This document shows, piece by piece, positions 2,574-17,007 of a stretch of 59,495 nucleotides of DNA (its first letter is position 1; each line of letters opens with the position of its first letter). The notes under the pieces are model-generated. The model worked only from the letters and a program-made list of their open reading frames with translations, was not told where the DNA came from and ran no database searches. The position numbers and the translations under genes were made by a program. The stretch is from Promethearchaeota archaeon (GTDB taxonomy: Archaea; Asgardarchaeota; Thorarchaeia; Thorarchaeales; Thorarchaeaceae): assembly GCA_048939765.1 (NCBI GenBank), contig JBHLPF010000022.1, forward strand, positions 1 to 59,495, given 5' to 3'.

Positions 2574-3548
2574 AGTCTCCTGATGAGTGCCAAATTGTTT
2601 CCACAACCTCATAAACTGAAGCTTAATCTGTTCTGCACGCTCTTCGACCATGAATATCGTCAACAACTCCATTAGCTTGGAAACTAATGGCGGATTAAGA
2701 TTGAGGATAATTCCATTTGTAGAAATGTAATTAGCCTCATCGAATGCCACTCTGCCATTCATAAACTCCCCACGTTCAATTGAGCCATAGCCTCGCGCTT
2801 TGAGCAATGATTCCAAACTCCCATGCCGCTGAAGGAGAAATATACCCTTCCTGGGGCCGATACCTTTCACTCCTTGCTTGTGAAAATCACATCCGCATAC
2901 CATAGCAAGATCCCTTAGACGCTCAATATCGAGCCCTGTGGTGTGTTCTAAATCAGCTAGTGTTGCTCTAAGTATCAGTCCTTTGGACAGCTGCAATTGC
3001 TTTGTCACATGGGGGCTACCAAATAGAAGTGCATCTGAGTCATTTGAAACAACCGTGTGTACTAGTCCGTCCCTGCATAGAGCAGCGGAAAACATCTCAG
3101 CCTCTGATGGCGCAGAGATTGCAGGCACACCTAAAACGCGGGCGAGTTCGCGTGTATGCTCCATAGCAAAGTACATTCTGAGAGAAGGGCTCTTCCTTAG
3201 TGGGTTGGCGATCTCCTCATCAAAGGGATCCCGAGTTTCTTTGAATTGCTCGTAGAAGGATTGTGCAGTGAGAATGAGTTCAGGATTTGGAGACCTCTTC
3301 ATACACTCAGGTGGACCGTCATAGACTAGGACAGGTAGCAGTGCGTTCTTCATGCACATTCTGACCAAGCTCAAAGTCATTCCTGCATGTTGAAGAGGAA
3401 TTCTACCGCTATCTCTTTTTGATGGCGGAATGACACTCACACGACGCGTTAAGTAGTTGGGCATATCTATCGCTATACTGCCAGGGGTCACTTCTTTCGC
3501 TTTGACCCAAACCCATGGGACTAGATTGCTCCAACCTGTCACACCCAT
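2556..3548 (-). CDS. FEN1/XPG-family structure-specific 5' nuclease paralogue with C-terminal PCNA-interacting (PIP) box
   Basis: Start MGVTGW at 3548 follows a GGTGA RBS. Catalytic acidic motifs IAID, VYDG, SEAE, SNDSDALLFG and GCDF; H3TH motif GVKGIGPRKG; C-terminal QETLEQWL PIP box. Confidence 0.9.
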   Translation of the reverse strand: MGVTGWSNLVPWVWVKAKEVTPGSIAIDMPNYLTRRVSVIPPSKRDSGRIPLQHAGMTLSLVRMCMKNALLPVLVYDGPPECMKRSPNPELILTAQSFYEQFKETRDPFDEEIANPLRKSPSLRMYFAMEHTRELARVLGVPAISAPSEAEMFSAALCRDGLVHTVVSNDSDALLFGSPHVTKQLQLSKGLILRATLADLEHTTGLDIERLRDLAMVCGCDFHKQGVKGIGPRKGIFLLQRHGSLESLLKARGYGSIERGEFMNGRVAFDEANYISTNGIILNLNPPLVSKLMELLTIFMVEERAEQIKLQFMRLWKQFGTHQETLEQWL

Positions 3549-3561
3549 ATATACATCACCA

Positions 3562-4287
3562 CTATCTGAAGGCCTGCAGACCATCTTTTGCTTCCATGAG
3601 AATCAGTGCCTGAGGTTCGGAAACTGCTGTACTCCGCTCGACCAAAACACGAATCAGATTCTTCCCTACGTCCAATCGATCAACTCTGACAACTGAGTCA
3701 ACAGCATGAGCAAGAACATTGCCACCAATGGGCGTGGGTCGACCTAAACTCCAGCTTCTTGAAGAATGGTCTGTCATCAGAAGATGAGCCCCAATATCAT
3801 TGACAAGCTCTCTCAAGACTTCAAGACAGTGGAAAAGCTCTCTTTGCCTTCCTGCGCTTCCTGGAGCACCTGAAAGATTCAGTACCCCCGTCAGACTATC
3901 TAGCACTATTACAGACACACAGCCCAAGTCGGGAATGGTTTTGCCAAGTTTCTCCAGGTCTGAAAGACTCAATACTCTTCCAACAACAACGCGACTGAGA
4001 ATCTTTGACACTTTGTTCTTGGAGATACACATCACTCGAGCCAATGTGGGACTGTAATTAGAACCTGAATCAATATAGACGGCATGTCCAGTATCAAGTT
4101 CAGCTGCGGCAATCGCTATGGCGTGAGCAAGCAACGTTAAGGGAGATCGCTCAGGGCCGTGAAGGAGACTCAATTGCTCCGGTACTAGAATGCCTCCGAG
4201 CAAGTCATCAAGTTGCCTCGGAGTAAGCGAGATTGTGGATTGTGTTTCGAAATCTAATGAATCAAGTGGCATTCGCAAGGGTGTCAT
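3562..4287 (-). CDS. RecA/Rad51-fold paralogue with inactivated Walker A
   Basis: LDDLLGG, degenerate P-loop HGPERSPLT (no GK), VYIDSG, Walker B VIVLDS and Rad51-type PIGGNVLAH. GGAGG RBS upstream. Confidence 0.85.
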   Translation of the reverse strand: MTPLRMPLDSLDFETQSTISLTPRQLDDLLGGILVPEQLSLLHGPERSPLTLLAHAIAIAAAELDTGHAVYIDSGSNYSPTLARVMCISKNKVSKILSRVVVGRVLSLSDLEKLGKTIPDLGCVSVIVLDSLTGVLNLSGAPGSAGRQRELFHCLEVLRELVNDIGAHLLMTDHSSRSWSLGRPTPIGGNVLAHAVDSVVRVDRLDVGKNLIRVLVERSTAVSEPQALILMEAKDGLQAFR

Positions 4288-5209
4288 TGACCTCCTTTAG
4301 GGTGGCATACCTGTGAAGTAATAGCGCATTGGCTAGTTCACCATCAGGAACTCTTTGAGAAACTAGACCGGGTGCTGCTGATTCAGGATAGATGATTCTA
4401 GGACCGGTCTTGCTTGGGAAAACAATCATGCGAGAGGGGAGGCTCCGTATCAGGTAATTGACGGCATCTTGATCAGTAGCTATGCAGTATTCAGCCATCG
4501 AAAGACCGTTTCTTTCATCAATAAGAGGGACCTTGAGTATTGCCTCCCGCAAGAGTGGTGAAACGTCACCCTTGATTATGATATTTGCTCTCAAGAGAAT
4601 ATCTCCGATCTGGGTCAAATTTACCCTCACAGAGTTTGCATCAATGAAGAGTGCGTCGCATTCATTGAAGTGAGTCAGTGAGATTGGTAGAAGCGGTCGG
4701 TCTCTCATCAGCGAGATGACCTTCTCCCGGCTTTCAGGAGTGAGCAGTACAACGTGATGTGATACATCCATGCTTATTACTGGACCGGACACTCTTGGGT
4801 CTCTGCTCAGCCGAGATATTGATGAGTCAGTAGACATCGATGCCATCCATTCTTTCAGGTTATTTGAGTCATACATCACTGAGCATCCAATAATCGTTAA
4901 TGCAGCACCTAAAAGAGAGGAAACCATCCCATAAGGCAATAGTCCAACGAATGCTACCACGGCAAGATATCCAGAGGATGCATAAGCAAGTATACCTAGA
5001 ATCGCAGAAAGTGTGTGTTTGGCGAATAGTCGTTTCAGCTGAATCAATGCCAATGTTGTGGCAACGGCAATAATCAAGGGAATGATGTTGCCGCTTCTAA
5101 AGGATATAACGACAAGTGCTACGGATGAGAGCAATTGGGCACCACCTGCCAAGGCAACAGCTCCTGCTATAGCCAATCCTATGATTTTCAGAATTCCTTT
5201 TCCAAACAA
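4262..5209 (-). CDS. Membrane protein with about 4 N-terminal TM helices and a soluble C-terminal domain, function unknown
   Basis: Four hydrophobic segments in the first ~115 aa. Likely TTG start at 5209 behind a GGAG RBS (ORF track starts at 5251). Confidence 0.75.
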   Translation of the reverse strand: MFGKGILKIIGLAIAGAVALAGGAQLLSSVALVVISFRSGNIIPLIIAVATTLALIQLKRLFAKHTLSAILGILAYASSGYLAVVAFVGLLPYGMVSSLLGAALTIIGCSVMYDSNNLKEWMASMSTDSSISRLSRDPRVSGPVISMDVSHHVVLLTPESREKVISLMRDRPLLPISLTHFNECDALFIDANSVRVNLTQIGDILLRANIIIKGDVSPLLREAILKVPLIDERNGLSMAEYCIATDQDAVNYLIRSLPSRMIVFPSKTGPRIIYPESAAPGLVSQRVPDGELANALLLHRYATLKEVNDTLANAT

Positions 5210-5874
5210 TTCGAGACCACTCCTTGCTGACGCGAAAGAAACAGTTGGCAAGCTCCGTTTTGCAGGACCTGCAGCTGCGCAATTTCGAAATTATTGCCAG
5301 ACTCTACAAAGGAAACGGAAGACGATTTGCGGGAAATATGCCTGCATACCTTGATGGTACTATCTGCCCATTTTGCTATTTCATTTGAAAACACTGGAAG
5401 ATTACCAGTTTCCGGATGGAATCTCATCTCACTAACAACAATGATGTCTATACCTCTTTCCAAGGACAATGCTCCCAAGGTTGGTAGCGCCTCCTCAATT
5501 AGCTCCTGCCCCCATAGGAGGGGATCAGTCCTAGACATGTCAAGCACCCTAGTAATGGGATCAATGACAATTAGAGACGTGTCTGGCGTTATCGCAATGG
5601 GCAGTCGTAACACGGCATCTAATGCCTGTTTGTGACCCTTTGTCATCATAACAGACACATTACTCTCCACTCCACTGAGATGCTTGATTGTTGCCTTCAG
5701 ATGAGGTATGAATCGTTTCTTTGAGTCGGCATTTATCCATTCCACGCGGGATGTCCGAGATGCATCAGCTGCGATAGCCGTCGCCAGCAGCGTTTTGCCG
5801 GAGCCTGCAGGTCCTATGACATGGATAATTCCTCCGAGCTCCAATAATGCGCGAAGGCTGTATTCACGAGTCAG
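5188..5874 (-). CDS. RadB-like short RecA-fold ATPase
   Basis: Walker A GPAGSGKT, WINAD, Walker B LIVIDP, IVVSE; no N-terminal HhH domain. Start uncertain: an in-frame CTG at 5874 lies just downstream of GGAGG, while the ORF track gives 5958. Confidence 0.8.
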   Translation of the reverse strand: MTREYSLRALLELGGIIHVIGPAGSGKTLLATAIAADASRTSRVEWINADSKKRFIPHLKATIKHLSGVESNVSVMMTKGHKQALDAVLRLPIAITPDTSLIVIDPITRVLDMSRTDPLLWGQELIEEALPTLGALSLERGIDIIVVSEMRFHPETGNLPVFSNEIAKWADSTIKVCRHISRKSSSVSFVESGNNFEIAQLQVLQNGACQLFLSRQQGVVSNCLEKEF

Positions 5875-7477
5875 AAGAGCTACCCTCCTCGAAGTCGCCC
5901 TGAGAAGATTGAACAAGATTTGTTGGCTCCTTACTTGCTGTGCTCGCAGCAACAACATCAGCCCCAGTGCGAATCTCTTCCTGAAACGCAGATTCGCCTA
6001 TTGTTACAGCGTTTATTACTGGGATTTCAACACCTTGAGATTTCATTGATGAGTGTAACATTGCATCAAGGAGATTTTGATCGAGCTCCTCATTCATCGA
6101 TGAATCGACTTTTTCAGCTCTTTCGGTGTTAGATGTTTCCGATGGAGGTTTTGTGTCAATCTCGTCAGGTTCAGCTAATGATCTGTCAATGGCATCAATC
6201 GTTCTCTTCATTGCTCTATTGTTGATCTTGTCATCAATCGTATCCTTGATATCAGGTCGAAGAGCTCCAGCGTTGTACAGTGCGTAGCTCAGATTGCCTA
6301 CATGTTCTATCATATCCTCGAAACTGAGAGGGGATGTGATATGAGCCGTAAGCGCAACATATGATAATGCTAATGATTCCTTTTCCACTTCAACTCCAAG
6401 AGCATCAAATAGACCTAGGAATCTTGATAGACCTTCATCTCCAACTCTTGGCGAATTCCCTTCCTCATTCCTGAGTGGAGCCAATCTTACGCATTCATCC
6501 AGAATGACACAAGCTGTTGCAATAGATTCTTGTAAGGCGCCAGCTTCGATAGTGTTTGCAAGATTTGCCAGTAGAGGGGATACAACAAAGCTGATGTCGC
6601 CTAATATTCGAAGATTGTCCTCGTTGGACTCTATGGACTGGTGAAGTCTTGTGGTGTCCCCAAGGGTTGAAAGAACCGCCTCTTCATTTCGCAAACACTT
6701 CTCAAATTCTCTCAAGTTGCCCTTGGAGCTTGAAAGCAGCCAGAGACCTGTTAGTAGTGACACCACCACCGTTATGAATGATAGGAGAGTTGAGCCAGAT
6801 TCAGAGAGCAAGATAATAGCTGTCGAGCCAACACCAATTGTACAAGCAGTCAAAGCCAATACTCCGGCCCATCCTCTCTTTATGCTGCGCTCCAACCAAT
6901 ACCACTTCTTCTGGCCGACCGCATGCTTGAGTTCAGGTAAGGATGATCGTGCATCACTTCTTCTTGCAAGGGCGAATTCCTCAATGGTCACTACTCTTCC
7001 TGAGTCAGTTAGCCAAGACAGATCCATTGAGGGCTTCACAGTCCTAGTCACAACATAGACCGTCCTCGTTGGATGAATCAACGAGACCTTCCTGCCTTTG
7101 CTTCCTCGTAGCATGAGCAGTGACACAGAATCCATAGGAGTTTTCAACTCCCTTCGTTCAAGATAGTCTCCTAATCCAACGTCATGCAAGACAGTTTCTA
7201 ACCCTCGATTGACACTCTCCAAAAGCGCGGCTCTCATGGCCAAGCCACTTTTGCCGAAACGGGCTGTCCTCAGGTCCAGAACGTAAACCAATTCTACATG
7301 GACACCTCGTGTTCCAGGGATGGGTTCCAAGTGTACAGCACTAATTAGTCCGTTTGGATACTCACATGTAAAATGGCCTGAAGCTCTGAGTACATCAATA
7401 AGATCACCACTTGGTCGTTCAGTTTCATTCCCAATACCTGCATTGGGTCGTGTGTTTTCGCGACTTGATATTGCCAC
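5864..7477 (-). CDS. Membrane-anchored protein (central TM hairpin, helical domain, acidic tail), function unknown
   Basis: 537 aa with two hydrophobic helices around aa 203-250 and an acidic low-complexity C-terminus. GTG start after GGAGGTG. Confidence 0.75.
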   Translation of the reverse strand: MAISSRENTRPNAGIGNETERPSGDLIDVLRASGHFTCEYPNGLISAVHLEPIPGTRGVHVELVYVLDLRTARFGKSGLAMRAALLESVNRGLETVLHDVGLGDYLERRELKTPMDSVSLLMLRGSKGRKVSLIHPTRTVYVVTRTVKPSMDLSWLTDSGRVVTIEEFALARRSDARSSLPELKHAVGQKKWYWLERSIKRGWAGVLALTACTIGVGSTAIILLSESGSTLLSFITVVVSLLTGLWLLSSSKGNLREFEKCLRNEEAVLSTLGDTTRLHQSIESNEDNLRILGDISFVVSPLLANLANTIEAGALQESIATACVILDECVRLAPLRNEEGNSPRVGDEGLSRFLGLFDALGVEVEKESLALSYVALTAHITSPLSFEDMIEHVGNLSYALYNAGALRPDIKDTIDDKINNRAMKRTIDAIDRSLAEPDEIDTKPPSETSNTERAEKVDSSMNEELDQNLLDAMLHSSMKSQGVEIPVINAVTIGESAFQEEIRTGADVVAASTASKEPTNLVQSSQGDFEEGSSSDS

Positions 7478-7478
7478 C

Positions 7479-9686
7479 TCAATCTACACCTCCAAGACTC
7501 TGTTTCTTGCTTTTCGCAAGTCTTGTTTCTAGTCCTTCCATCAACCTCTGTGAAACCGCAATTGGCTGTTTCAAACCGCCTACTTCTGCGACGGCCACCA
7601 CTGCATAGAGCAACCAATGAGCGGCTTCTAGGAGTCCATAGGCATCACCCAGATGAAAGCCGGAACTCCGAGCCAACTCCTCAAGAGGAATGTCAGTTGT
7701 AGCTGCAGCAGCGATTAGATGTTCAAAAGTATCCTCCAGTGAAGTTCCTGATTCGATTGAGACCAGATGCTTCAAGAGCCATAGTAGCGTTGTACTCTCC
7801 TCAATCCTCGGTAAGAGCGCCAATAGCTCACGAATTGTTGGAATGCTGAGATAAAGCCGGTTTACAATCCTACCCAATCGTGTAGGCTTTAGCTTTCCAT
7901 CTATTCCGCCCTCGATAAGGCCCAGCCTGATGAGAAGCTCACTTGGACTCAGCTCGCTCAACGCGACTGGTATCACGTAATCTGCAAGATTGCCTAGCTC
8001 TCTTGCTGCATACAGTCCTAACGCAACCAAGTGAGGACATAGAACTCCATGGTTATCAATAGGTCTAGAGCATGAGCACTGCGGACCTTCCACGACACCC
8101 TCGGCAGAGAGACGAGCCGAGTACCTGCAGGTATAGTGCCCGTCCTCCCATGCCGCTACGATGCCACCAATAACACTATCATTTGTTTCTCTAAGGCTAA
8201 CGCTCCCCAGAAGCCCCAGTCGGGCTGGGCGAACAGTGTCTGACGTCGCATGCTTCTCAATTGCTGATTCTGCACTTATTTCGCCCAGCTGAAGAACCCG
8301 CATGGGAGAGTTTGCATCTCTAAGTCCGGTGAACATCAGGTAGGAATCTCCTAGGAATCCATCTGCAACATCGTCCAATGTTGCTTCGTCTAAGGCGTCT
8401 AGGGCAACTAACAGTTGCTCACTCAATGTCGCTGATTCACCCAGTCTGCTAATTACCCGGTCATATTTGGGAAAGATGATCTTGGTTGATGAATCAGCAT
8501 CTTGTGAGGAGAGAAAGTATCGCTTCTCTACTTCTTCAGCTTCTCCGGAGCTTCCGACAAGAATAATCCCAAATCCGGCCTTATCATAGCCAGGCCGACC
8601 AGCTCGACCTAGCATTTGATGTACGGAGTTCGCCGGAAGCATTGCTCGGTGATTTCCCGGAAACCGCACATTGGTAAGAACAACTGTTCTTGCAGGGAGA
8701 TCCATTCCAGCCGCAAGTGTTGTTGTGGCACAAATGAGTCGTACTTTCCCCCGGAGAAACAATTCCTCCACGAGTCGCCGTGCCCGAATTCCTAGGCCTG
8801 CATGGTGATATGCCGTTCCGTCATGAAGAAGGGTCCTCAGTTCTGGTGGCATATTGACATTCCAATTCTCAATTGACTCAAGCTCCTTGTCGAGGTCTTC
8901 CTTCTCAGTTCTAGTGTTATGCCGTCCAACATCCCCTGAAAGACGCATAGCCTGTGATTCAGCCTCACGTCTCGTCCGATGAAATACAATTGCTTGGCCA
9001 TCGCCTTGCACTGTTGTCATAACCAGCTGACGAAGGGCCCGCTCCTTGTGCTTGGAAGGAATAACACGATAGACCAAAGGCACAGGACGATCTTCTGATT
9101 CAACAAGAACGCAGCCAAGCCACTCAGCAAGCTCATCCGGAGAGCCAACTGTCGCTGAAAGCCCAATCAACTGCAAGCCTTCAATCAATCGCTTGAACCT
9201 TATTATGATAGATTCAAGACGAGCGCCCCTTCCAAAATCTGAAATTGTCTGGATCTCGTCTATGACCAAGGAGCCAATGGAATCTAGCCAAGCTGTCTTT
9301 CGTCTCAGCAAAGAATCCGCTCTCTCGTATGTTGTCACAACGACATCATACTCCGAAAGGTCCCCACCATCATTCGAAAAATCCCCTGTACTCACACCAA
9401 TCCGTAGGCCTAGAGGCTCATACCTGTCTATCAGAAGTCCATACACCTGCACAGCGAGTGCCTTTAGCGGAACCAGATAGATTCCTTTCTTTCCAGTTAG
9501 TGCCGCTCGTAAGAGAGCCATCTCACCTACCAATGTCTTACCAGAGCCTGTTGGACTGCAGACCATAATACTTGCGCCATCAAGAAGACCGCGGTCAATC
9601 GACACTTTCTGAATCCCTCTCGGCGTCAATCCCAGTTGATGGAGAAGCCTGTGAACTTGTTCCTGGACATCAGCTACAACGATCAT
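7479..9686 (-). CDS. Ski2-like/Hel308-family SF2 helicase with inserted SWIM zinc finger
   Basis: SPTGSGKT, LVPLKALA, TTYER, DEIQ, GLSAT, YHHAGL, CATTTLAAGMDLPA, QMLGRAGRPGYD; SWIM signature CSC-x10-CPH at 8031-8078. Confidence 0.92.
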   Translation of the reverse strand: MIVVADVQEQVHRLLHQLGLTPRGIQKVSIDRGLLDGASIMVCSPTGSGKTLVGEMALLRAALTGKKGIYLVPLKALAVQVYGLLIDRYEPLGLRIGVSTGDFSNDGGDLSEYDVVVTTYERADSLLRRKTAWLDSIGSLVIDEIQTISDFGRGARLESIIIRFKRLIEGLQLIGLSATVGSPDELAEWLGCVLVESEDRPVPLVYRVIPSKHKERALRQLVMTTVQGDGQAIVFHRTRREAESQAMRLSGDVGRHNTRTEKEDLDKELESIENWNVNMPPELRTLLHDGTAYHHAGLGIRARRLVEELFLRGKVRLICATTTLAAGMDLPARTVVLTNVRFPGNHRAMLPANSVHQMLGRAGRPGYDKAGFGIILVGSSGEAEEVEKRYFLSSQDADSSTKIIFPKYDRVISRLGESATLSEQLLVALDALDEATLDDVADGFLGDSYLMFTGLRDANSPMRVLQLGEISAESAIEKHATSDTVRPARLGLLGSVSLRETNDSVIGGIVAAWEDGHYTCRYSARLSAEGVVEGPQCSCSRPIDNHGVLCPHLVALGLYAARELGNLADYVIPVALSELSPSELLIRLGLIEGGIDGKLKPTRLGRIVNRLYLSIPTIRELLALLPRIEESTTLLWLLKHLVSIESGTSLEDTFEHLIAAAATTDIPLEELARSSGFHLGDAYGLLEAAHWLLYAVVAVAEVGGLKQPIAVSQRLMEGLETRLAKSKKQSLGGVD

Positions 9687-12040
9687 CTTTCTGCTTCATC
9701 TCTCTGTGCAACTTGATGAAGGGCCATGCTGCCTTTCATGGTGATTCGGTAGTTCGTATACGAAACCGCCCCATGGACCTCATGACCCCTGAGTATCATA
9801 CCCGACTTTTCCAGCCTGGCCAGCACTCCACTGATGTCAGGGTCTCCTTTCACATCTCCTGAAAGGAGAAACTTTCGCATTGCTTCCTCTGTTAGTGGCT
9901 CATACCTCTCAAGTAGTCTAAGCATCTTGATGGCGGTATCCCTCTGTCCACCTGCGACTCTATCAATCAATGAATCGCCAAAAGCCACTCCCTCGTTGGG
10001 AGGCCCCCGAGGAATGATATCAGATATCCGTGTTTCGAGCTCCTCAGGACTAAGCCCGGAAAGAGGGGCGGTTTCATCCAACTCAACTGGCATGCATGTT
10101 TCGCCCTGATTCCTGACCAGAAGCACGACTCCGTTGGGCATAACTCTTAGATATGATGTTTCTCTGGATGATTGACGGGCTTTGCTATGGATACCAGATG
10201 AAACGACACTGATACCAAGCAATTCAACAGCAGTCTTTAAGTCCGGACTCTCACGAAGTCGGTGAGTGATGCAAGAGCTCAGTTTACCAATTGCACCAGG
10301 AGCCATGTCTACTGGATGGTCCAGAGCAACAATTGTGGGACCTCTCTGCAACATGTCCCGAAGCATCATCTCGCTCCATGAATCCCTCTTCATATATCGA
10401 CGGTTTCGAATCCTCATGTTCTCTGCATTCTCGAGAATGATAGTGAGATCCTGATCCTCTTGGAGCCCTGAAAGCTTGATGCACACGAGATCAAAGGCGA
10501 ATTTCTCCATGGGCAGATATCCTTGAGATAGCACCAGCACCCCGAGCTTGGTCTGAGCCAAATCACGCATGGAGATTGTCTGAGATCCATAGAAGGAACG
10601 CGATGCAGTTCCTTGGTGTAGAGATCTTATTGCCTCATAGCCTGACATGCTTTTATCAGATGGCTTCCGTTCGTTAGGCTCATCCACCTCTGAATAGGCA
10701 TTCATGACATCTGGAGTCTGGGTCAGTTGAACATCAGCCACCGTTGTATTGCCTAAGGCGATAGCACGATTGATTGCTAGTTCTAAGTCAGTTGCACCGC
10801 GAAGGTCAGTGCCAGCAATTACCTCTAGAGCAGTCATCAATTTGGACACATAGATATGTCTCGGAAGCCCTTCCGCGTCCATAGGATTTAGTACCAGATC
10901 TCTCCCAAGCTCAAATGATACTGCACCTTCAGAAAGGGATGCGAAATTCTTGGCATCACGTTCACTACTCACAATAATGACCCGCTTTCCATGTGACAGT
11001 AGCTGTTTCACGATCAAGGTGAGGGTATGTCTTCGCTCTTCTAAAGTCCCGCCGCAGACTAACAGTCCTGATCGGATATCATCGTGTGATAGACCAGTAG
11101 CAGGTCCGGGTCGAAGAGTTTCTGGATTTATCACGCGGCCTATGTAATAATCTCCTGCTCTGGGCTTTATGGGTGCAAGGAACTCACCTGGAACATTCGA
11201 CCCAATCTCAGATGCAAGCTCACTAGGAATCTGTATCAGCCACTCTGAGAGTTCGGTTCCAGCGGCATAGAATAATGGAAGCCTAGGGGTCATGTTCATC
11301 ACCCGCATATACGAAGCTAAAGATTTGGGCTTTATCTTAGACCAGTTTCCATCCGGAACTGCTGCCTTAATCGATGACTCGAATCTTTGAACCTGATCGA
11401 TATCCTGCGAGTGCCCCATAATCGAGACCCGGACCGACCAAAGGCCTCCGCGCCTGGTCATATAGGCATCCAATCCGCCGCTTGAAAGATAGTTCAAGTA
11501 TCCATCCAATCGCGAAGAAAGACGCTCTTCCTCCACGATGGATGAGAATTCTTCTGGCCTTGCTATCACTGATAGACAGAATCCCTTTGAGCTATCGATG
11601 GCTCTAACGAGTGCACTCACATTTCCCACCAATAGAGGGCCAGCCAATGGCAGCTGCAATCCTATCACGTTGCGATTGCCGGATGGCGTTTTACACTGAA
11701 CGACATCGTGTTCTCCGTTCACTGCGAAGGAAGTATCACTCTCGGGAACACGAACCCATTCTGATTCTTGCAGGGAGCGAACTTCTTGTGAGGCCCTCAG
11801 TTTGGGGACTAATATCGTAGCAAGAAGACTAGCAAGGGAAACCAGAGCAAGACTCAATGGCAATGCCGCAAGAATGACTGCTACGGTGATTGCTGTGATT
11901 GCATCACGACCGTGGGATGGTTTCACTCTTCTGTCATCCCATTGAAGTTCAATCCCACCACTCACAGTCATGGTGGGCTGAGTGATCTCCTTCAGTGGAT
12001 CAACTTCGGGCTCGGTACCGAGAATCAGACGCTTACCCAA
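9683..12040 (-). CDS. Membrane-anchored HerA/VirB4/CedB-like P-loop protein with degenerate ATPase motifs and C-terminal wHTH
   Basis: N-terminal TM segment. Family hallmarks appear in order: YYIGRV, LLVCGGTLEERR (Walker A position), LVLNPMD, IILENAEN (Walker B position), ALDHPVDM...CITHRL, YLRVMPNGVVLLV. wHTH ends YRITMKG. Confidence 0.7.
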   Translation of the reverse strand: MGKRLILGTEPEVDPLKEITQPTMTVSGGIELQWDDRRVKPSHGRDAITAITVAVILAALPLSLALVSLASLLATILVPKLRASQEVRSLQESEWVRVPESDTSFAVNGEHDVVQCKTPSGNRNVIGLQLPLAGPLLVGNVSALVRAIDSSKGFCLSVIARPEEFSSIVEEERLSSRLDGYLNYLSSGGLDAYMTRRGGLWSVRVSIMGHSQDIDQVQRFESSIKAAVPDGNWSKIKPKSLASYMRVMNMTPRLPLFYAAGTELSEWLIQIPSELASEIGSNVPGEFLAPIKPRAGDYYIGRVINPETLRPGPATGLSHDDIRSGLLVCGGTLEERRHTLTLIVKQLLSHGKRVIIVSSERDAKNFASLSEGAVSFELGRDLVLNPMDAEGLPRHIYVSKLMTALEVIAGTDLRGATDLELAINRAIALGNTTVADVQLTQTPDVMNAYSEVDEPNERKPSDKSMSGYEAIRSLHQGTASRSFYGSQTISMRDLAQTKLGVLVLSQGYLPMEKFAFDLVCIKLSGLQEDQDLTIILENAENMRIRNRRYMKRDSWSEMMLRDMLQRGPTIVALDHPVDMAPGAIGKLSSCITHRLRESPDLKTAVELLGISVVSSGIHSKARQSSRETSYLRVMPNGVVLLVRNQGETCMPVELDETAPLSGLSPEELETRISDIIPRGPPNEGVAFGDSLIDRVAGGQRDTAIKMLRLLERYEPLTEEAMRKFLLSGDVKGDPDISGVLARLEKSGMILRGHEVHGAVSYTNYRITMKGSMALHQVAQRDEAER

Positions 12041-12335
12041 CAGAAGCCCCTCCTGTGGTTGAAATGGATCTTATCTGGCGTCGCAACATGTCAAGCACGC
12101 GTTGCAATCGTTCCGCGTATACGGCGTCTGATCCTGACACGAGGAGCAAATTCTCTCCAACAAGAAGAATCTCTGGCATGTTTCCAAGATCTGATGATCC
12201 ATGAGCAACTAGTGTCGGGTTTTTTGTCAGCACTAGCCAGTTATAGCTATGGCCTATCTCAAGTGAATGCATCACTGCTTCGTGTGTCACGCCAAATGGA
12301 AGCTCGATGGCTATCCTATCACCTGACTTGAGCAT
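12033..12335 (-). CDS. Small hypothetical alpha/beta protein
   Basis: About 100 aa, overlapping both neighbours; ATG at 12335 after GGAGGTG. Confidence 0.7.
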   Translation of the reverse strand: MLKSGDRIAIELPFGVTHEAVMHSLEIGHSYNWLVLTKNPTLVAHGSSDLGNMPEILLVGENLLLVSGSDAVYAERLQRVLDMLRRQIRSISTTGGASVG

Positions 12336-12918
12336 ATGGCTCAACACCTCCAGAGGTCACCATCAATAGATCATCCAATCCTGCTAGATCAATAGGCATG
12401 TGAGGATAGGCGGCTCTCATTGAACTCTCAAGGACTGCTGCGTCAGTGACAATTTCATCTGCAATCGAAGATGCCCTCTTTATCCCATCTAAGAACCGAA
12501 TGCCTCTTCGCGCAACAAGCATCCCCGCACGGGTGATACCATCTCCTGCGGGTCTGCAGAGAAAGAACCGAACTTCTCCATTCTTCTTCCCATCATATCG
12601 CGCATGAAGAGCTCGAAGCACCTTGGATGCTGAATGGCTAAGGTCTAGTCCGATGGGAACGCTTGTCATCAATCGTCCTGCTAAGACCTCCAGCGTAAAT
12701 GGCCGAAGAATGGCAAGGACACCTCGCTGATCATCCCAAACAATGAGAGGTTGTTGATTGTTCCTCCAACTCAGAGCCAAGAGTCCTGCAGATACTATAG
12801 TGATTAAGGATAGAAGAACGTCCATATTTCCCCAAGACACCCAGATTCCAAGAATTGCACCAAGTATCAATGTGCCAAGGCCAATCCATCTAATCTCCCA
12901 TCGCTCGTACCATGCCAA
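12319..12918 (-). CDS. Membrane protein (N-terminal TM hairpin), apparently paralogous to the N-terminal region of the 785 aa HerA/VirB4-like protein
   Basis: Two TM helices at aa 10-52; LESSMRAAYP matches FESSIKAAVP in the 785 aa protein. Confidence 0.7.
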   Translation of the reverse strand: MAWYERWEIRWIGLGTLILGAILGIWVSWGNMDVLLSLITIVSAGLLALSWRNNQQPLIVWDDQRGVLAILRPFTLEVLAGRLMTSVPIGLDLSHSASKVLRALHARYDGKKNGEVRFFLCRPAGDGITRAGMLVARRGIRFLDGIKRASSIADEIVTDAAVLESSMRAAYPHMPIDLAGLDDLLMVTSGGVEPYAQVR

Positions 12919-12919
12919 T

Positions 12920-14875
12920 TCAACTTCCCTCCCTCAATGCTATGAACTGTGAAATCGCAGCCTTCAGCTCAGCAACATCCCCAAAGGGCCAGATATCAGC
13001 TACCATGTCATCACCAAACACCCGGACATGCTTGAGAAAACGCTTGTCTAGAAGAACGACAATACCCCAGTCCTCAGGCGCTCTTCTGAGTCGACCAAGA
13101 ACTTGGGCGACCTGACGAATGGATGGGACCAGCGCTCCGTAATAGTATCCGGCTCCTTCTCCAAATCTGCCATCATAGAACTCTTGCAGTGCTCTTTGGT
13201 AGCTTGTGGGAGGGGAGAATGGAATCCCGACTCCAATGATTAAATCTATCATACTGGAGCCGCCTTTCACCAGATCGACCCCCTCTGAGTATTTCCCTCC
13301 GAAGACACAGAAGATGGCGTGAGGACCAATTTCCAAGGCTTCTGCAACGGTTTCGATGCGGTCGCCTCTCTCTTCAACGAGAGTTCCGCGATATCCCGAG
13401 TCAATGCCGTAGCTCAAGACTTCATGGAGAATCTTGTAGCTTGGAAACGCAATAAGGGCGCTCTTATTTGCTGGAACCGTTGTGAGTACGGTGTTTATTC
13501 TATCAGCAAGTGCACGCCAGAGGTCGGGACCTCTTGCCTGATACTTGGTTGTGTGCTCTCTGTCGATGAGCACAAGTCTGGTAGATCGGGGATATGGACT
13601 TGCTAAGTCCTCCGTTATGGCACCCCCAACGCCCAATAGTCTTGCGTAATGGTCAAGGGGTCTCAGAGTTCCAGACATCAGGAGCGCGGATCTTGCGCCC
13701 CTAAGGACAGGTGCAGAAAGACCAGATGCGTTTAGGGGCCGAATCATCAGCGTTGCTCTCGAAGCGGTTAGCGCTTCCTCCCAGGATCGTTTCACATTGA
13801 GCGTCACATGCCATCCTTCGCTTCTGGTAGATAGATGGGCCACAAAGAGGAACTCGACAAGTCTGTCCAGTGGTGTTTCCATTGAAACAGCCACCTCGGG
13901 GTCACCGATGTTGGGGCTAGTAGTTTCATGCATAAGCCGCAAATCCGACTCTTCTATGAATCTAGGAGCCACATCCCACTTGGCTAGTGTACGCTCTGAT
14001 CTTCTATTCATACCGTCAAGGTTGAGCATCATTGTTTCGTAGAGGAAGTCCACAGCCTCTCCAATCCAACTGATGCTGGTTTCCTTGACAATCTCCGACT
14101 TATGATCCCTTAACCATCGGAGGTCTTCACCATTCAGCCTGGCTGTTTCCGAGTCAAGCGCATGATCTGACAGGTTGTGGGCTTCATCAACAAGCAAATC
14201 AACATCATGGAGTGAGAGTCCCAATGATGATAGAAGAGCCTCGCGCACCCTTGACCTGAACATGTAGCTATATGGTCCAATTATGACCTTACTCTGTCTC
14301 GCGCACCAACGCATCACCTCATACGGGCACACGCCCTCCGTGGTGCAGAGGTCTTCCACTCGCTCACGTGTCACAACGCCCGTGTTTAGTAAGTCCTCAA
14401 CACGTTCTCTAACCCACTCCCTGATGACACTTCGACCATCGCCTGAGCTTTTTCTATAGACATTGTGGTAATATGTACATTGCCCAGTCTTAATCATCGA
14501 TGCGCAGGCTCGCATGAAGCCTGTAGATGTGTCGGAGTCAATCTCGCTTCGAATTGGACACATATGGATTCTCGAAACCATAGTGGTGGCCGTAAGTTCA
14601 GGCATCAGTGCCCTAAGGACATCAAGTTCAATCTCGAATACCCTTGACTGACTATGAGTTCGTGTCAGTACAATCAATCTTGAGCTAGCGTCACTGCCCC
14701 TTGCAGCAAGATATCCTGATAGAACTGCCACCGTCTTTCCGACGCCACAATCAGCGGAGAGTAATCCCACTGTCTTGGATGAAAAGACTTCTGCAGCAAA
14801 CCGTACAGCCTTGTCTTGATGCAATCTAGGTGTATAGGGAAACCACATGAGAGGATCAGTAACTGCAGTACTCAA
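12920..14875 (-). CDS. XPD/Rad3/DinG-family Fe-S cluster 5'-3' DNA helicase
   Basis: ADCGVGKT, LTRTHSQ, four Fe-S cysteines (HMCP, RACA, GQCTYY, GVCPYE), VDEAHNL, MSGTL, AFPSY, GGKYSEGVD, GIPF, QVLGRLRRAPEDWGIVVLLDKRF. Confidence 0.95.
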   Translation of the reverse strand: MSTAVTDPLMWFPYTPRLHQDKAVRFAAEVFSSKTVGLLSADCGVGKTVAVLSGYLAARGSDASSRLIVLTRTHSQSRVFEIELDVLRALMPELTATTMVSRIHMCPIRSEIDSDTSTGFMRACASMIKTGQCTYYHNVYRKSSGDGRSVIREWVRERVEDLLNTGVVTRERVEDLCTTEGVCPYEVMRWCARQSKVIIGPYSYMFRSRVREALLSSLGLSLHDVDLLVDEAHNLSDHALDSETARLNGEDLRWLRDHKSEIVKETSISWIGEAVDFLYETMMLNLDGMNRRSERTLAKWDVAPRFIEESDLRLMHETTSPNIGDPEVAVSMETPLDRLVEFLFVAHLSTRSEGWHVTLNVKRSWEEALTASRATLMIRPLNASGLSAPVLRGARSALLMSGTLRPLDHYARLLGVGGAITEDLASPYPRSTRLVLIDREHTTKYQARGPDLWRALADRINTVLTTVPANKSALIAFPSYKILHEVLSYGIDSGYRGTLVEERGDRIETVAEALEIGPHAIFCVFGGKYSEGVDLVKGGSSMIDLIIGVGIPFSPPTSYQRALQEFYDGRFGEGAGYYYGALVPSIRQVAQVLGRLRRAPEDWGIVVLLDKRFLKHVRVFGDDMVADIWPFGDVAELKAAISQFIALREGS

Positions 14876-15498
14876 GTATTAGCCTCCAGATGTAGACAGG
14901 ACTCGCTCGTGTGGATTCTGAACCGCAGAGAGAAGTACTTTCGTAGAAGCTGATGGAACTGCCACATCAATGAAGGCGATTTGTATCCTATTTCCTTGTT
15001 TGCCATTCGCTCCACGATTTCTGGATTGAACCCTTTCTGACGAGCAATCTTCCAGAACCAGGCTTCCACCTCTCGCCTAGTGGAGCATATGTGACTCACT
15101 GAGCTCTCTATAAGGTTAGTAAGAGATCGTACAGCCTCCTTAGGCTTGCTGGGCAACTGTGAAACTCTTACTCCTGTTGGTAGATAGACGGCAATTCCCT
15201 CAGCGCTGTCCAGATATATCTCATGAGGGACCCCCTTTGTCCCCCTCAATGTTTCAAGGAGAGAAAGCAGCCTCGGAAGTTGCGGCAACGCCGGTTTGTT
15301 GAGGTCAGGGTCTCTCCAATCAACCCTAGTGACGACGTGAATTTCAGGATCTGGAGCTGCACATTTCTCTAGGACTGTTACTCGATGTGATGTTTCTCTC
15401 ATGAGGAGATTCACAAGATTGATCATTGTGTAGTTCGCGACAGTCGGAGGAGTTCGCGGAACCCAGACATAGTTGCTCTCCGATTCGCTACCTGCCAA
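14872..15498 (-). CDS. Hypothetical protein (208 aa)
   Basis: TTG start 1 nt after the upstream stop, behind GGAGGTG; TTGA overlap with the XPD-like gene. Confidence 0.75.
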   Translation of the reverse strand: MAGSESESNYVWVPRTPPTVANYTMINLVNLLMRETSHRVTVLEKCAAPDPEIHVVTRVDWRDPDLNKPALPQLPRLLSLLETLRGTKGVPHEIYLDSAEGIAVYLPTGVRVSQLPSKPKEAVRSLTNLIESSVSHICSTRREVEAWFWKIARQKGFNPEIVERMANKEIGYKSPSLMWQFHQLLRKYFSLRFRIHTSESCLHLEANT

Positions 15499-15499
15499 C

Positions 15500-15943
15500 C
15501 TACCACACCTCCATTGGAATGGTGACTAGTCCACCATTCTTGATTACTTCACCCTCCGAAACGAGAGAGTCAAGGAATGTCATTGCACGAGAGATATCGA
15601 TACCAGCATCGCTGCATTCTCTCATGACGTCTTCAATCGATACCGGTCGGCCTCGATTTAGATCAACTAGCGCTTCGATGATGTAGTAGACACGCCTCTT
15701 AATGCCCAGTCCCCTTCCTCCACTCCGGGGCTTGGCATTCTGCCGCGACTCTATCACAAGCTCACGGACACTCGACTGCGCTTCCTGAACTGTTACCGCA
15801 TAGATTGTTCCAGGAACATGAAGGATCAGACTTCTGCATAGACTGCATCTCGACTCCTCTTGCTCATTCTCGACTAGTGCGTATCCGATATTTGTGCAAC
15901 TGGGACACTGGTAGACTCTGAACATCCCTCGTTCCGAGGTCAC
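15500..15943 (-). CDS. Zn-ribbon plus C-terminal winged-helix protein (DUF1922/DUF5817-like architecture), putative DNA binder
   Basis: CPSC...CSLC; C-terminal wHTH VSIEDVMRECSDAGIDISRAMTFLDSLVSEGEV; GTGA overlap with the RadA-like gene. Confidence 0.75.
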   Translation of the reverse strand: MTSERGMFRVYQCPSCTNIGYALVENEQEESRCSLCRSLILHVPGTIYAVTVQEAQSSVRELVIESRQNAKPRSGGRGLGIKRRVYYIIEALVDLNRGRPVSIEDVMRECSDAGIDISRAMTFLDSLVSEGEVIKNGGLVTIPMEVW

Positions 15944-17007
15944 CCAGCCTCACCTGCCTTAGCTCGCGGCGCCTCAGCCTCCTCGAGTTCAATCTCAGTC
16001 TCCTCTTCAGTTACGCCTTGCTTCTCAAAGTAGTCAAGAATCCCTGGCTCCTTCTCCTTCTTGCTCTTGGAGTCCTGGTACATCCCACCCCAGCCTACAA
16101 CCATTTCTACGTCGAACTCGGGAAGCCCCGCATTGTCTATCAGTTGGATCTTTCGTTTATCGTCCTTTGTCCTGCGTGTGTAGAATCTGTAATCACTGGC
16201 ATGCGATAGTATGTGGCCACCGATTGGAGCATTATCATACCCACCGTAGGTGCTTATCTTGGACATCACTTGATTAGTGTAGATGAATATGGCATCCGTG
16301 GCCTTGGCGGTTCTCCTCATCTGATTTAGGAGCGCATTCATCTCCTGCTGACGGATTCTGAGGGACTCCAGACCTGTGTACTCAGCCCGAAAGAGTCCCG
16401 TGAACGAGTCTACGACTACGAGAACGTAGTCTTGCTCGCTGCAGAGCTGGGGAATGGACTCGAATATCTCCTGAATTTGATCAGATAGGAAGACCTCTGC
16501 CCGTCCTATGTTTCCCAGTGTGATGTCAGGATCAAGAGCCCATCGAATTGCATTGGCTCTAATAGTGTAGGGCTTGAACGATGACTCGCTGTCCAGCCAC
16601 AACACTCTGCCTTCGAGACCCCCTTGGTCTCTCGGGAGTTGTGCTCGCACTGCCAAATGCGCACTGAATTGTGTCTTCCCCCCTCTTGCAGGACCATAGC
16701 ATTCAACGATAGATCCAACTTCGATTCCTCCAAAGAGCGCTTCATCCATTTTTTCTATGCCGGTCTTTAAGCGGGACTTTGACTCCATCTCTTTCTCCAC
16801 CTCGAGGCCAGACTTGAAGCCGTGCATTCCAAGGAGAATCCTGGCATTTCGGATGATCTTCTCGATTGTGCCTTCACCCAGCTTTGTCTTTTTTTGAAGT
16901 TCAACAGGGTTTTGAACGGCCAGCAACTCAGCCGTTGTGACAAATGCCTCCCTCAGCTTCTTTGCCGCAGCTGGTCCGACGCCAGTCACTCCCTCCAACT
17001 CAGTCAT
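15940..17007 (-). CDS. radA: RadA/Rad51-family recombinase (divergent full-length paralogue)
   Basis: N-terminal HhH (GVTGVGPAAAKKL), Walker A GPARGGKT, WLDSESSF, Walker B VVVDS, LFRAEY, RQQ, TNQV, PIGGHILSHAS, acidic tail. Confidence 0.9.
   Translation of the reverse strand: MTELEGVTGVGPAAAKKLREAFVTTAELLAVQNPVELQKKTKLGEGTIEKIIRNARILLGMHGFKSGLEVEKEMESKSRLKTGIEKMDEALFGGIEVGSIVECYGPARGGKTQFSAHLAVRAQLPRDQGGLEGRVLWLDSESSFKPYTIRANAIRWALDPDITLGNIGRAEVFLSDQIQEIFESIPQLCSEQDYVLVVVDSFTGLFRAEYTGLESLRIRQQEMNALLNQMRRTAKATDAIFIYTNQVMSKISTYGGYDNAPIGGHILSHASDYRFYTRRTKDDKRKIQLIDNAGLPEFDVEMVVGWGGMYQDSKSKKEKEPGILDYFEKQGVTEEETEIELEEAEAPRAKAGEAG

What the first reader, a model, noticed from the sequence alone, without database searches (positions are those of the whole stretch)
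9683..12040. Catalytically dead, membrane-anchored HerA/VirB4/CedB-like pseudo-translocase with C-terminal wHTH
The order and spacing of HerA/VirB4 motifs is kept, but each catalytic element is altered. Walker A G-T-G-S-G-K-T reads GGTLEERR (~11030-11053), Walker B hhhhDEAH reads IILENAEN (~10415-10438), and the TQxP motif reads DHP. The TM anchor resembles CedB, and the extra wHTH suggests DNA binding. Inference: it is a scaffold or DNA-conducting ring whose motor role has passed to the two flanking helicases, or an inactive subunit of a hetero-hexamer with an active HerA/VirB4 encoded elsewhere.
Basis: partly seen in the sequence, partly recalled or inferred. Interest (0 to 1): 0.85.

Follow-up and report, generated by a model that had tools for sequence, protein, structure and literature searches.

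The report
ATP-dead VirB4-like membrane protein, Thorarchaeota
This intact, strongly conserved gene of an Asgard archaeon (Thorarchaeota) encodes a membrane-anchored protein with the fold of VirB4, the motor of DNA-transfer machines. Its ATP-splitting residues are replaced in every relative and it carries an added DNA-binding tail, so it is probably a passive docking hub that holds a spare set of recombination enzymes and DNA at the membrane.

Summary
ORF 9683-12040 (-) encodes 785 aa with no Pfam, NCBIfam, PADLOC or PDB sequence match.

- **Fold:** the AlphaFold2 model matches VirB4 (4ag6: Z 27.9, rmsd 2.8 Å, 323 residues), then DndH-C, HerA and TrwB. The N-domain folded alone hits only the TrwK/VirB4 N-domain.
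- **Motifs:** G330-G-x4-R336 replaces GxxxxGK[ST], and invariant Arg336 takes the lysine's place. hhhh[D/E]537 lacks the catalytic Glu. D-H-P replaces TQxP.
- **Not decay:** no orthologue among more than 117 proteins in about 45 species has GK[ST]. dN/dS is 0.10-0.12.
- **Distribution:** R336 and D537 are also kept in distant relatives from other Asgard families. There the gene is split into a membrane-anchor + N-domain gene and a C-domain + winged-helix gene.
- **Context:** a Hel308 paralogue lies within about 8 kb in 10 of 14 loci sampled outside the orthologue family. RadA and FEN1 are often there too. Here the gene overlaps its neighbours inside a 15-gene operon of paralogous RadA, XPD, Hel308 and FEN1 plus membrane proteins.

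Best reading: a non-catalytic VirB4/CedD-type hub. The ring form and "motor passed to helicases" are inference.

The scan found orthologues before in other Thorarchaeota genomes, with the same reading.

The parts
9683..12040 (-). Whole gene, 785 aa: VirB4-like pseudo-ATPase with membrane anchor and winged-helix tail
   Evidence: ORF list and translation. 117 full-length homologues at 38-92% identity. dN/dS 0.10-0.12.
11921..12040 (-). Conserved N-terminal peptide (residues 1-40; G8, P11, D14, P15, W34, R37), predicted disordered
   Evidence: Alignment A1. pLDDT below 50. Function unknown.
11792..11911 (-). Hydrophobic hairpin / membrane anchor (residues 44-83), basic residues on both flanks
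   Evidence: Kyte-Doolittle scan of the window protein and 8 relatives. Helices 43-59 and 61-92 in the model.
11273..11755 (-). N-domain (residues 96-256), alpha/beta, VirB4-N-domain-like
   Evidence: Folded alone, pLDDT 82. Foldseek top 10 are all TrwK/VirB4 (best E 4.8e-4, TMq 0.57; next unrelated E > 0.1). VIA wide search top hit is TrwK 212-373, Z 6.4, 143 of 161 residues.
11156..11272 (-). Most conserved segment: linker residues 257-295 (FYAxGxELSEWLVQ..SELASEVGSNVPGEFIAPIR), disordered in the monomer model
   Evidence: Invariant W267, Q270, E274, L275, E278, G280, P284, F287, I291. dN/dS 0-0.08. P284/E286/F287/P290 kept in distant Asgard relatives. In split forms it is the N-terminus of the C-domain protein.
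10046..11155 (-). P-loop-fold C-domain (residues 296-665), VirB4/HerA type
   Evidence: VIA-align: 4ag6 VirB4 Z 27.9/2.8 Å/323 aa; DndH-C 24.8; HerA 4d2i 24.1; TrwB 19.8; FtsK 17.8. Foldseek E 7e-12 to TrwK.
11030..11053 (-). Walker A place: G330-G-T-L-E-E-R336-R337. G330, G331 and R336 are invariant. No GK[S/T].
10415..10447 (-). Walker B place: strand LTIIL then E537 (D/E in all), N538 in place of the catalytic Glu
   Evidence: Strand 532-537 in the model.
10313..10321 (-). D574-H575-P576 at the place of the HerA TQxP motif (P576 invariant)
10139..10189 (-). Invariant basic/Ser-rich loop HSKARxSSRESSxLRVM (residues 618-634), low confidence in the model
   Evidence: K620, R622, S624, R626, E627, S629, L631, M634 invariant. 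R622 and L631 kept in distant relatives. Role unknown: DNA contact or inter-subunit contact is inference.
9686..9973 (-). C-terminal winged helix-turn-helix (residues 690-785), the most constrained domain
   Evidence: H-H-H-E-E-H topology. dN/dS 0.03-0.07. wHTH Pfam hits in relatives. Weak BlaI-like PDB hit, E 0.13.
12319..12918 (-). Upstream 199-aa protein: membrane hairpin plus soluble domain, possible stand-alone copy of the anchor + N-domain module
   Evidence: Hydropathy. Shares only the C-terminal YPH..GG stretch with split N-domain proteins (hhalign E 4.6e-4). Not significant against A1.
12033..12347 (-). Upstream 104-aa soluble protein, overlaps the target start by 8 nt
   Evidence: Conserved position in L006, L007 and L009.
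7479..9686 (-). Downstream Hel308-like helicase paralogue (735 aa), ATGA overlap with the target stop
   Evidence: Pfam DEAD/Helicase_C; NCBIfam Hel308 at 285 bits over the core only. Canonical Hel308 elsewhere in the genome at 619 bits. Linked to relatives of the target in 10 of 14 loci sampled outside the orthologue family.

Best explanation
The gene encodes a non-catalytic, membrane-anchored member of the VirB4/HerA branch of the FtsK-HerA superfamily. Its layout is hydrophobic hairpin, VirB4-type N-domain, conserved linker, VirB4-type P-loop-fold domain and winged helix.

The nucleotide pocket has been rebuilt. Arg stands at the Walker A lysine position, there is no Mg-binding Ser/Thr, and there is no catalytic Glu. 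The protein is therefore not expected to hydrolyse ATP.

It most likely acts as a structural hub. It would hold DNA through the winged helix and basic loops. It would also hold partner proteins at the cytoplasmic face of the membrane: above all the Hel308 paralogue encoded next to it, plus the small proteins encoded just upstream. Any DNA movement would be driven by the SF2 helicases of the operon.

Shown here: the fold, the motif replacement, the selection, the synteny and the split/fused forms. Inferred: lack of ATPase activity, oligomeric state, DNA binding, partner contacts and the role of the whole operon.
For: - Fold: (C-domain Z 27.9 to VirB4 4ag6). (N-domain top hits are TrwK/VirB4 only).
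- Motifs: invariant G330, G331, R336, D/E537, P576 and no GK[ST] in 33 aligned orthologues or in the orthologues among 142 profile hits. Only the three weakest hits (P0241, P0244, P0252) have GxxGxGK[ST], and they are DUF87/HerA proteins.
- Selection: dN/dS 0.10-0.12 overall, 0.08 in the P-loop domain, 0.03-0.07 in the winged helix.
- Distribution: 45 species loci, nearly all Thorarchaeota. Present in 53 of 85 genomes of the same family and 1 of 1 of the sister family. Single copy in this genome.
- Synteny: the same 15-gene order at 45% and 38% identity and in a more distant lineage.
- Helicase link: the gene overlaps the Hel308 paralogue by ATGA. A Hel308 paralogue lies within about 8 kb of the relatives in 10 of 14 loci sampled outside the orthologue family, with RadA in 4 and FEN1 in 2.
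- The operon's RadA, XPD, FEN1 and Hel308 are all second, divergent copies.
- Established knowledge: Walker A Lys and Ser/Thr and the Walker B catalytic Glu are needed for hydrolysis in P-loop ATPases. CedB/CedD share the TM + N-domain + VirB4-like layout (PMC11868833).
Against: - No experiment exists. Arg at the lysine position and a conserved acidic residue at the Walker B position could still bind a nucleotide or another anion.
- No model of a ring or of any partner contact was obtained.
- The N-domain match is weak (VIA Z 6.4).
- The winged helix in this protein itself is supported by topology and by relatives, not by a significant sequence hit.
- One distant lineage pairs the protein with an intact HerA/TraG-like ATPase. 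A hetero-complex with a motor encoded elsewhere is therefore not excluded; this genome has five DUF87 genes.
Confidence: 0.55

Rival explanations
1. It is the inactive, regulatory or structural subunit of a mixed assembly with an active HerA/VirB4-type ATPase encoded elsewhere in the genome. This would resemble the two VirB4 layers of type IV secretion systems, or the proposed CedB/CedD pairing.
For: In a distant relative's locus (L010) the degenerate + winged-helix protein is followed directly by a 794-aa protein with intact GIPKTGKS and LEEAH and weak HerA_C/TraG hits. This genome has five DUF87-type genes on other contigs. PMC11868833 proposes that CedB and CedD act together as VirB4.
Against: No HerA/VirB4-type ATPase lies in the 15-gene operon here, in its orthologous copies, or in 13 of the 14 other loci sampled. 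The consistently linked motor is a Hel308 paralogue.
Confidence: 0.12
2. The remodelled pocket still binds a nucleotide or another phosphate ligand without turnover, or with very slow turnover. The protein would then be a ligand-controlled switch rather than a passive scaffold.
For: R336 at the Walker A lysine position and D/E537 at the Walker B Asp position are kept in 23 and 21 of 25 distant Asgard relatives. G330, NPxDxE 385-390 and P576 are kept as well. That is a constrained pocket rather than an eroded one. The P-loop domain has dN/dS 0.08.
Against: The Gly before the lysine position and the Ser/Thr after it are variable. The model shortens the loop to three residues between strand 326-329 and helix 333-349. 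R336 and D537 could simply form a structural salt bridge.
Confidence: 0.15
3. It is a membrane-tethered transcription regulator that controls the operon through its winged helix. The pseudo-ATPase domain would serve only as a sensor or oligomerisation module.
For: The winged helix is the most constrained domain (dN/dS 0.03-0.07). Its weak hits are to repressor-type families: PadR, MarR, HTH_24/IclR and BlaI-like.
Against: A 785-aa VirB4-type two-domain body plus membrane anchor is far more than a regulator needs. The tight translational coupling inside the operon and the conserved split pair beside Hel308 across Asgard lineages suggest a stoichiometric machine part. No repeated operator was sought or found.
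Confidence: 0.07
4. It is a decaying copy of a once active HerA/VirB4 gene.
For: Loss of the canonical Walker motifs.
Against: It is full-length and without stops in about 45 species. dN/dS is 0.10-0.12. The replacement residues are themselves invariant.
Confidence: 0.01

Closest known systems
VirB4 / TrwK / TrbE, the inner-membrane ATPase of type IV secretion (PDB 4ag5/4ag6, 7o42, 7o43, 8rtd)
   Same: Best structural match for the C-domain (Z 27.9, rmsd 2.8 Å, 323 residues). It is also the only specific match for the N-domain. Same N-domain + C-domain order. It sits at the membrane, where VirB4 binds the small hairpin protein VirB3, which is fused to VirB4 in some systems (own knowledge).
   Different: No Walker A GK[ST] and no catalytic Glu. 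No match to the VirB4 Pfam models. An added C-terminal winged helix. No VirB2, VirB6 or VirB8-type genes were recognised nearby. The context is recombination enzymes, not a conjugative element.
CedB / CedD (Sulfolobales Ced) and TedB (Thermoproteales Ted), the VirB4-like ATPases of archaeal DNA import (PMC9905601, PMC11868833)
   Same: Archaeal and chromosomal. TM + N-domain + HerA/VirB4-like C-domain layout. Linked functionally to homologous recombination of imported DNA. Ted loci also carry HerA and Rad50 genes.
   Different: CedB and TedB are thought to power transport. No sequence similarity was detectable here. No CedA/VirB6-like channel or CedA1/VirB2-like pilin was identified in this operon. 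The winged helix is absent from the described Ced proteins.
HerA (HerA-NurA end-resection motor; PDB 4d2i, 9x1m; Pfam DUF87)
   Same: Same P-loop fold (Z 24.1). The only active ATPases reached by the sequence profile are DUF87/HerA proteins (E about 1e-4). Archaeal recombination context.
   Different: The N-domain is not a HAS barrel. No NurA partner. No DUF87 hit. Motifs are replaced. Membrane-anchored.
FtsK (membrane anchor, motor, gamma winged helix)
   Same: Same overall logic: a membrane anchor, then an FtsK/HerA-fold domain, then a C-terminal winged helix, which in FtsK reads DNA polarity.
   Different: Weaker fold match (Z 17.8, about 205 residues). Different N-domain. FtsK is an active pump.
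Degenerate FtsK-like domains of EssC/EccC (type VII secretion)
   Same: A precedent (own knowledge) for FtsK/HerA-fold domains that have lost catalysis and serve as regulatory or docking modules in a membrane machine.
   Different: Those domains sit in one chain with an active domain. Here no active domain of the fold is in the protein or the operon.

Membership tests
FtsK-HerA superfamily (fold level) | RecA-like P-loop core with the superfamily's strand order and C-terminal elements | tested here: met
   Residues 290-660 align to VirB4, DndH-C, HerA, TrwB and FtsK with Z 17.8-27.9. Foldseek E down to 7e-12.
VirB4 (type IV secretion ATPase) | C-terminal domain of VirB4 type | tested here: met
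   4ag6_A Z 27.9, rmsd 2.8 Å, 323 of 373 residues. This is the top of 998 chains.
VirB4 (type IV secretion ATPase) | VirB4-type N-terminal domain | tested here: inconclusive
   With the domain folded alone, the Foldseek top 10 are all TrwK (E 4.8e-4 to 0.08; unrelated hits E > 0.1). The VIA wide search ranks TrwK 212-373 first, with 143 of 161 residues aligned. Its Z of 6.4 is within the range of chance folds.
VirB4 (type IV secretion ATPase) | Walker A GxxGxGK[ST] | tested here: not met
   G330-G-T-L-E-E-R-R. Arg is invariant at the Lys position and the Ser/Thr position is variable.
VirB4 (type IV secretion ATPase) | Walker B hhhhDE with catalytic Glu | tested here: not met
   LTIILE537-N. 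The acidic residue is kept and the next position is N/G/D/T/S.
VirB4 (type IV secretion ATPase) | Match to curated sequence models (CagE_TrbE_VirB, AAA_10, DUF87) | tested here: not met
   0 Pfam, NCBIfam or PADLOC families for the protein. None of these models appears among 33 members at E up to 1.
VirB4 (type IV secretion ATPase) | Encoded with VirB6-like channel and VirB2-like pilin genes | tested here: inconclusive
   No such Pfam hit in the operon. The four membrane proteins (199, 537, 329 aa and the target) were not folded. The tight gene packing leaves no room for an extra small two-helix pilin gene.
CedB/CedD (Ced DNA import) | TM segment + N-domain + HerA/VirB4-like C-domain in one chain | tested here: met
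   The layout is as described in PMC11868833.
CedB/CedD (Ced DNA import) | Sequence relationship to CedB/CedD and co-occurrence with CedA/CedA1 | not tested
HerA | N-terminal HAS barrel and DUF87 central domain | tested here: not met
   The N-domain is an alpha/beta domain whose only specific match is the VirB4 N-domain. No DUF87 hit. hhalign to this genome's own HerA-like proteins gives probability 0.1-1.5%.
HerA | Paired with NurA nuclease | tested here: not met
   No NurA family hit among the 15 operon proteins.
Winged helix-turn-helix DNA-binding domains | Three helices followed by a beta hairpin wing | tested here: met
   H700-713, H718-727, H736-745, E749-756, E759-766, then H768-784, at pLDDT 66-85.
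Winged helix-turn-helix DNA-binding domains | Significant sequence match to a wHTH family | tested here: inconclusive
   The window protein has none. Family members give PadR 0.11, MarR 0.21 and HTH_66 0.027. Distant relatives give HTH_24 at 29.4 bits, above the cut-off (P0161), and HTH_34 at 2.5e-4. The domain profile against PDB is best to BlaI-like 2g9w, E 0.13.

The most novel reading that the evidence does not exclude
The Asgard-wide pair (anchor + N-domain, degenerate VirB4-like C-domain + winged helix) with its Hel308, RadA and FEN1 paralogues may be a domesticated, pilus-less descendant of a type IV / Ced-like DNA transfer apparatus. In it the VirB4 body would have become a passive membrane portal. 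SF2 helicases would pull DNA in or hand it over, and a dedicated RadA paralogue would recombine it. [quoted passage not shown]
Probability: 0.15. Interest if true: 0.9.

Novelty: new variant of a known kind. Interest (0 to 1): 0.66.

Why it matters
Asgard archaea are the closest known relatives of eukaryotes, and how they exchange and recombine DNA is unknown. This protein family has no annotation, no Pfam model and no solved structure. Yet it is conserved across Thorarchaeia, and in split form across several other Asgard families.

It is always found with spare copies of recombination enzymes. A published study notes a second RadA clade in some Asgard lineages (PMC12722695), but it says nothing of gene neighbourhoods or operons.

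Assigning the protein to the VirB4/CedD fold gives a concrete, testable entry point into a probable membrane-bound DNA-handling machine. The constrained Arg-for-Lys pocket is also a clean natural case of a secretion-type motor turned into a non-motor part.

Tried and rejected
- **Sequence searches, no result:** Pfam, NCBIfam and PADLOC gave no family for the protein. phmmer and profile hmmsearch against PDB gave only chance hits.
- **hhalign to own HerA-like proteins:** A1 against two of this genome's own HerA-like proteins gave probability 0.1% and 1.5%. The second aligned the correct C-terminal elements but was not significant.
- **199-aa family:** hhalign against A1 was not significant. Against split N-domain proteins only the last 36-44 residues aligned (E 0.028 and 4.6e-4). 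The paralogy of the 199-aa protein therefore stays a lead.
- **Complex prediction:** two copies of residues 250-670 gave no answer (score 0.00, controls not run). This is neither support nor evidence against a ring.
- **ESM Atlas:** no usable hit and no model for the 329-aa membrane protein or for the winged-helix part.
- **Literature:** searches on Asgard with VirB4, HerA, Hel308, RadA and FtsK-HerA found no description of this family.
- **Readings rejected:** a defence-system reading (no PADLOC hit; stable chromosomal synteny with the flanking GH3 gene). A mobile-element reading, for the same reason. A pseudogene reading.
Full report
**The gene.** The finding's coordinates match an ORF on the minus strand, 9683-12040, of 785 codons. 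It starts at a TTG preceded by GGAGGGG. It overlaps the stop of the upstream 104-aa gene by 8 nt. Its TGA overlaps the ATG of the downstream helicase gene (ATGA). The conserved N-terminus MGKRLILG... in homologues confirms the start. It is gene 9 of 15 co-directional, overlapping genes from 18220 down to 2556.

**No sequence-level annotation.** Pfam, NCBIfam and PADLOC return nothing. PDB sequence searches with the protein or its family profile return only chance hits. A search of 5.8 billion proteins finds 117 homologues at 38-92% identity. Nearly all are about 785 aa, all are called 'hypothetical', and almost all come from Thorarchaeota.

**Fold.**
- An AlphaFold2 model built on 33 homologues has mean pLDDT 72.6, with the core at 85-95.
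- By Foldseek it matches full-length TrwK/VirB4 of plasmid R388 best (E 7e-12, about 600 columns), then HerA, TdpA, DndH-C and TrwB.
- Re-alignment with VIA-align gives, for residues 290-660: VirB4 of T. pseudethanolicus Z 27.9 (rmsd 2.8 Å, 323 residues), DndH-C 24.8, HerA 24.1, TrwB about 19.8 and FtsK 17.8.
- I folded the N-domain (residues 96-256) alone on a 32-sequence alignment made from fetched loci (pLDDT 82).
- For this domain, Foldseek's ten best hits are all TrwK/VirB4 chains (E 4.8e-4 upward), and unrelated ferredoxin-like folds start at E > 0.1.
- An independent all-against-representatives search ranks TrwK residues 212-373 first, with 143 of 161 residues aligned. Its Z of 6.4 would not be convincing on its own.
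- Together the protein has the two-domain body of VirB4 rather than the HAS-barrel + core of HerA.

**Motifs.** When the family profile is searched against 1.84 billion representatives, the only hits with canonical motifs are the three weakest (E 6e-5 to 6e-4). They are bona fide DUF87/HerA proteins. Their alignment to the profile gives three equivalences:
- G-S-T-G-T-G-K-T lies on G330-G-T-L-E-E-R336-R337.
- IIEEA lies on ILE537-N-A.
- SQSP lies on D-H-P576.

In the 33-sequence alignment G330, G331, R336 and P576 are invariant and position 537 is always D or E. The Gly before the lysine position, the Ser/Thr after it and the catalytic Glu position all vary. By established knowledge of P-loop NTPases, this combination should abolish Mg-ATP hydrolysis. 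That is an inference, not a measurement.

**Not decay.**
- Against three orthologues at 88-90% identity, Nei-Gojobori dN/dS is 0.10-0.12 overall. It is 0.08 for the P-loop domain, 0.03-0.07 for the C-terminal domain and 0-0.08 for the linker 257-295.
- A scan of one genome per species found 45 loci, nearly all Thorarchaeota.
- A six-frame scan of 400 Asgard genomes found the orthologue without internal stops in 53 of 85 genomes of the same family and in the single genome of the sister family.
- It is single-copy in this genome.

**A wider, older family.**
- The profile also reaches proteins of 500-570, 770-980 and about 1260 residues. Those with names or placed genomes are from other Asgard lineages. 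Nearly all carry G-[GS]-[TSD]-x3-R or NGTxxxRE instead of a Walker A.
- In 25 such relatives R336 is kept in 23 and D537 in 21. G330, NPxDxE (385-390), K522, P576, R622 and the PxEFxxP of the linker are kept too. The pocket is remodelled and constrained, not eroded.
- In these lineages the protein is split. An upstream gene of 250-325 aa encodes a hydrophobic hairpin and a domain that matches the N-domain of the Thorarchaeota profile (hmmsearch 1e-5 to 3e-9; hhalign E 3e-4 and 6e-4).
- The next gene encodes the linker, the C-domain and the winged helix. The 785-aa protein is thus a fusion of two adjacent genes, or the others are splits. The junction lies near residue 257, where the model has its disordered linker.

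**Membrane anchor and tail.**
- Residues 44-83 are a 40-residue hydrophobic stretch with a central Pro and basic residues on both sides. Eight relatives checked have it too, and three of the split N-domain proteins checked carry a similar N-terminal hairpin. The charge pattern suggests a hairpin with both ends in the cytoplasm; this is inference.
- Residues 690-785 have helix-helix-helix-strand-strand-helix topology.
- The window protein gives no significant wHTH hit. Relatives do: HTH_24 above the Pfam cut-off in P0161, HTH_34/PadR in P0149, and weaker hits in two more.
- The domain profile's best PDB hit is a BlaI-like repressor at E 0.13.

**Context.**
- The operon order is: 249 aa, 155 aa, RadA-like, Zn-ribbon/wHTH 147 aa, 208 aa, XPD-like, 199 aa (membrane), 104 aa, the target, Hel308-like, 537 aa (membrane), a 256-aa RecA/KaiC-like ATPase, 329 aa (four membrane helices), a 241-aa RadA paralogue, and FEN1/XPG-like.
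- The same order is kept in genomes whose orthologue is 45% and 38% identical and in a still more distant lineage.
- The genome has better-scoring canonical RadA, XPD, FEN1 and Hel308 genes elsewhere. The operon therefore carries a spare, divergent set.
- I sampled 14 loci outside the orthologue family, most of them in other Asgard families (two are metagenome contigs without a name). A Hel308 paralogue lies within about 8 kb in 10, a full RadA in 4 (small RadA-like genes in 3 more) and FEN1 in 2. Hel308 is the most constant companion.
- In one locus (L010) the neighbour is instead a 794-aa protein with intact GIPKTGKS and LEEAH and weak HerA_C/TraG hits.

**Reading.**
- The protein is best described as a non-catalytic VirB4/CedD-type protein with an added winged helix.
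- Its nearest functional analogues are the VirB4-like ATPases of the archaeal Ced and Ted DNA-import systems. These are domesticated type IV secretion systems tied to recombination (PMC9905601). Their CedB/CedD proteins have the same TM + N-domain + ATPase layout (PMC11868833).
- Membership in VirB4 as an enzyme family fails on the Walker motifs and on the sequence models, and no VirB6- or VirB2-like gene was recognised.
- I therefore file it as a new variant. It is most probably a docking hub that holds DNA and the Hel308 paralogue at the membrane, with any translocation done by the helicases.
- Rivals are a partner of an active HerA-type ATPase encoded elsewhere, a nucleotide-binding switch, and a membrane-tethered regulator.
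- A test of self-association by complex prediction gave no answer, and expression data could not be obtained.

**Earlier notes of this scan.** After my own analysis I looked these up. Orthologues in four other Thorarchaeota genomes and split relatives in other Asgard genomes had been followed up before, with the same conclusions. I could only partly support the proposed paralogy of the 199-aa protein.

Noticed in passing
window 12319-12918 (-): The 199-aa membrane protein shares a C-terminal 'ESS..YPH....GG' stretch with the stand-alone anchor + N-domain proteins of other Asgard lineages. It has the same hairpin-then-soluble-domain layout. It may be a second, unfused copy of the target's N-terminal module. 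hhalign supports only the last 36-44 residues (E 4.6e-4 and 0.028).
   Followed up: partly
window 2556-18220 (-); genome contigs C85, C93, C35, C37: All four recognisable repair enzymes of the operon (RadA, XPD, FEN1, Hel308) are divergent second copies. Canonical, better-scoring genes lie on other contigs.
   Followed up: yes
window 12920-14875 (-): The XPD-like helicase scores higher against the PADLOC model of the type IV-A CRISPR-associated DinG (247 bits, full length) than against the NCBIfam rad3 model (159 bits).
   Followed up: no
genome contig C93:1949-5119: A 240-aa RadA paralogue and the better-scoring XPD gene lie about 2 kb apart on the same strand. This could be a second small recombination cluster.
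   Followed up: no
L010:6449-14931: In a distant metagenomic relative the degenerate + winged-helix protein (847 aa) sits in a different six-gene cluster. The cluster has a CxxCxxCC-domain protein and, directly downstream, an intact HerA/TraG-like ATPase (794 aa).
   Followed up: partly
L011:10001-13786 and about 40 profile hits of 1230-1340 aa: A family of about 1260-residue proteins carries the same degenerate core (LLITNGTxxxRE, xNQxHYLH) in its second half. In L011 it lies near a Hel308-like helicase and an HhH protein. The N-terminal 500 residues are unexplored.
   Followed up: no
window 20403-21959 (+): A GH3-family (acyl-acid amido synthetase-like) gene lies next to the operon head, with one intervening gene here. 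It is also found next to the operon head in two distant Thorarchaeota lineages (L007, L009). This argues for vertical inheritance of the whole region.
   Followed up: partly
window 22144-24509 (+): There is an adjacent pair: a calcineurin-like phosphoesterase (359 aa) and an SMC_N/AAA_23/SbcC-Walker-B ATPase of only 429 aa. This looks like an Mre11/Rad50- or SbcCD-like pair with a very short coiled coil.
   Followed up: no
L046 (MAXT01000013.1, 2130 bp): A 2.1-kb contig filed under a Desulfuromonadales bacterium MAG encodes a 47%-identical orthologue. This is most likely a binning contaminant from a Thorarchaeote.
   Followed up: no
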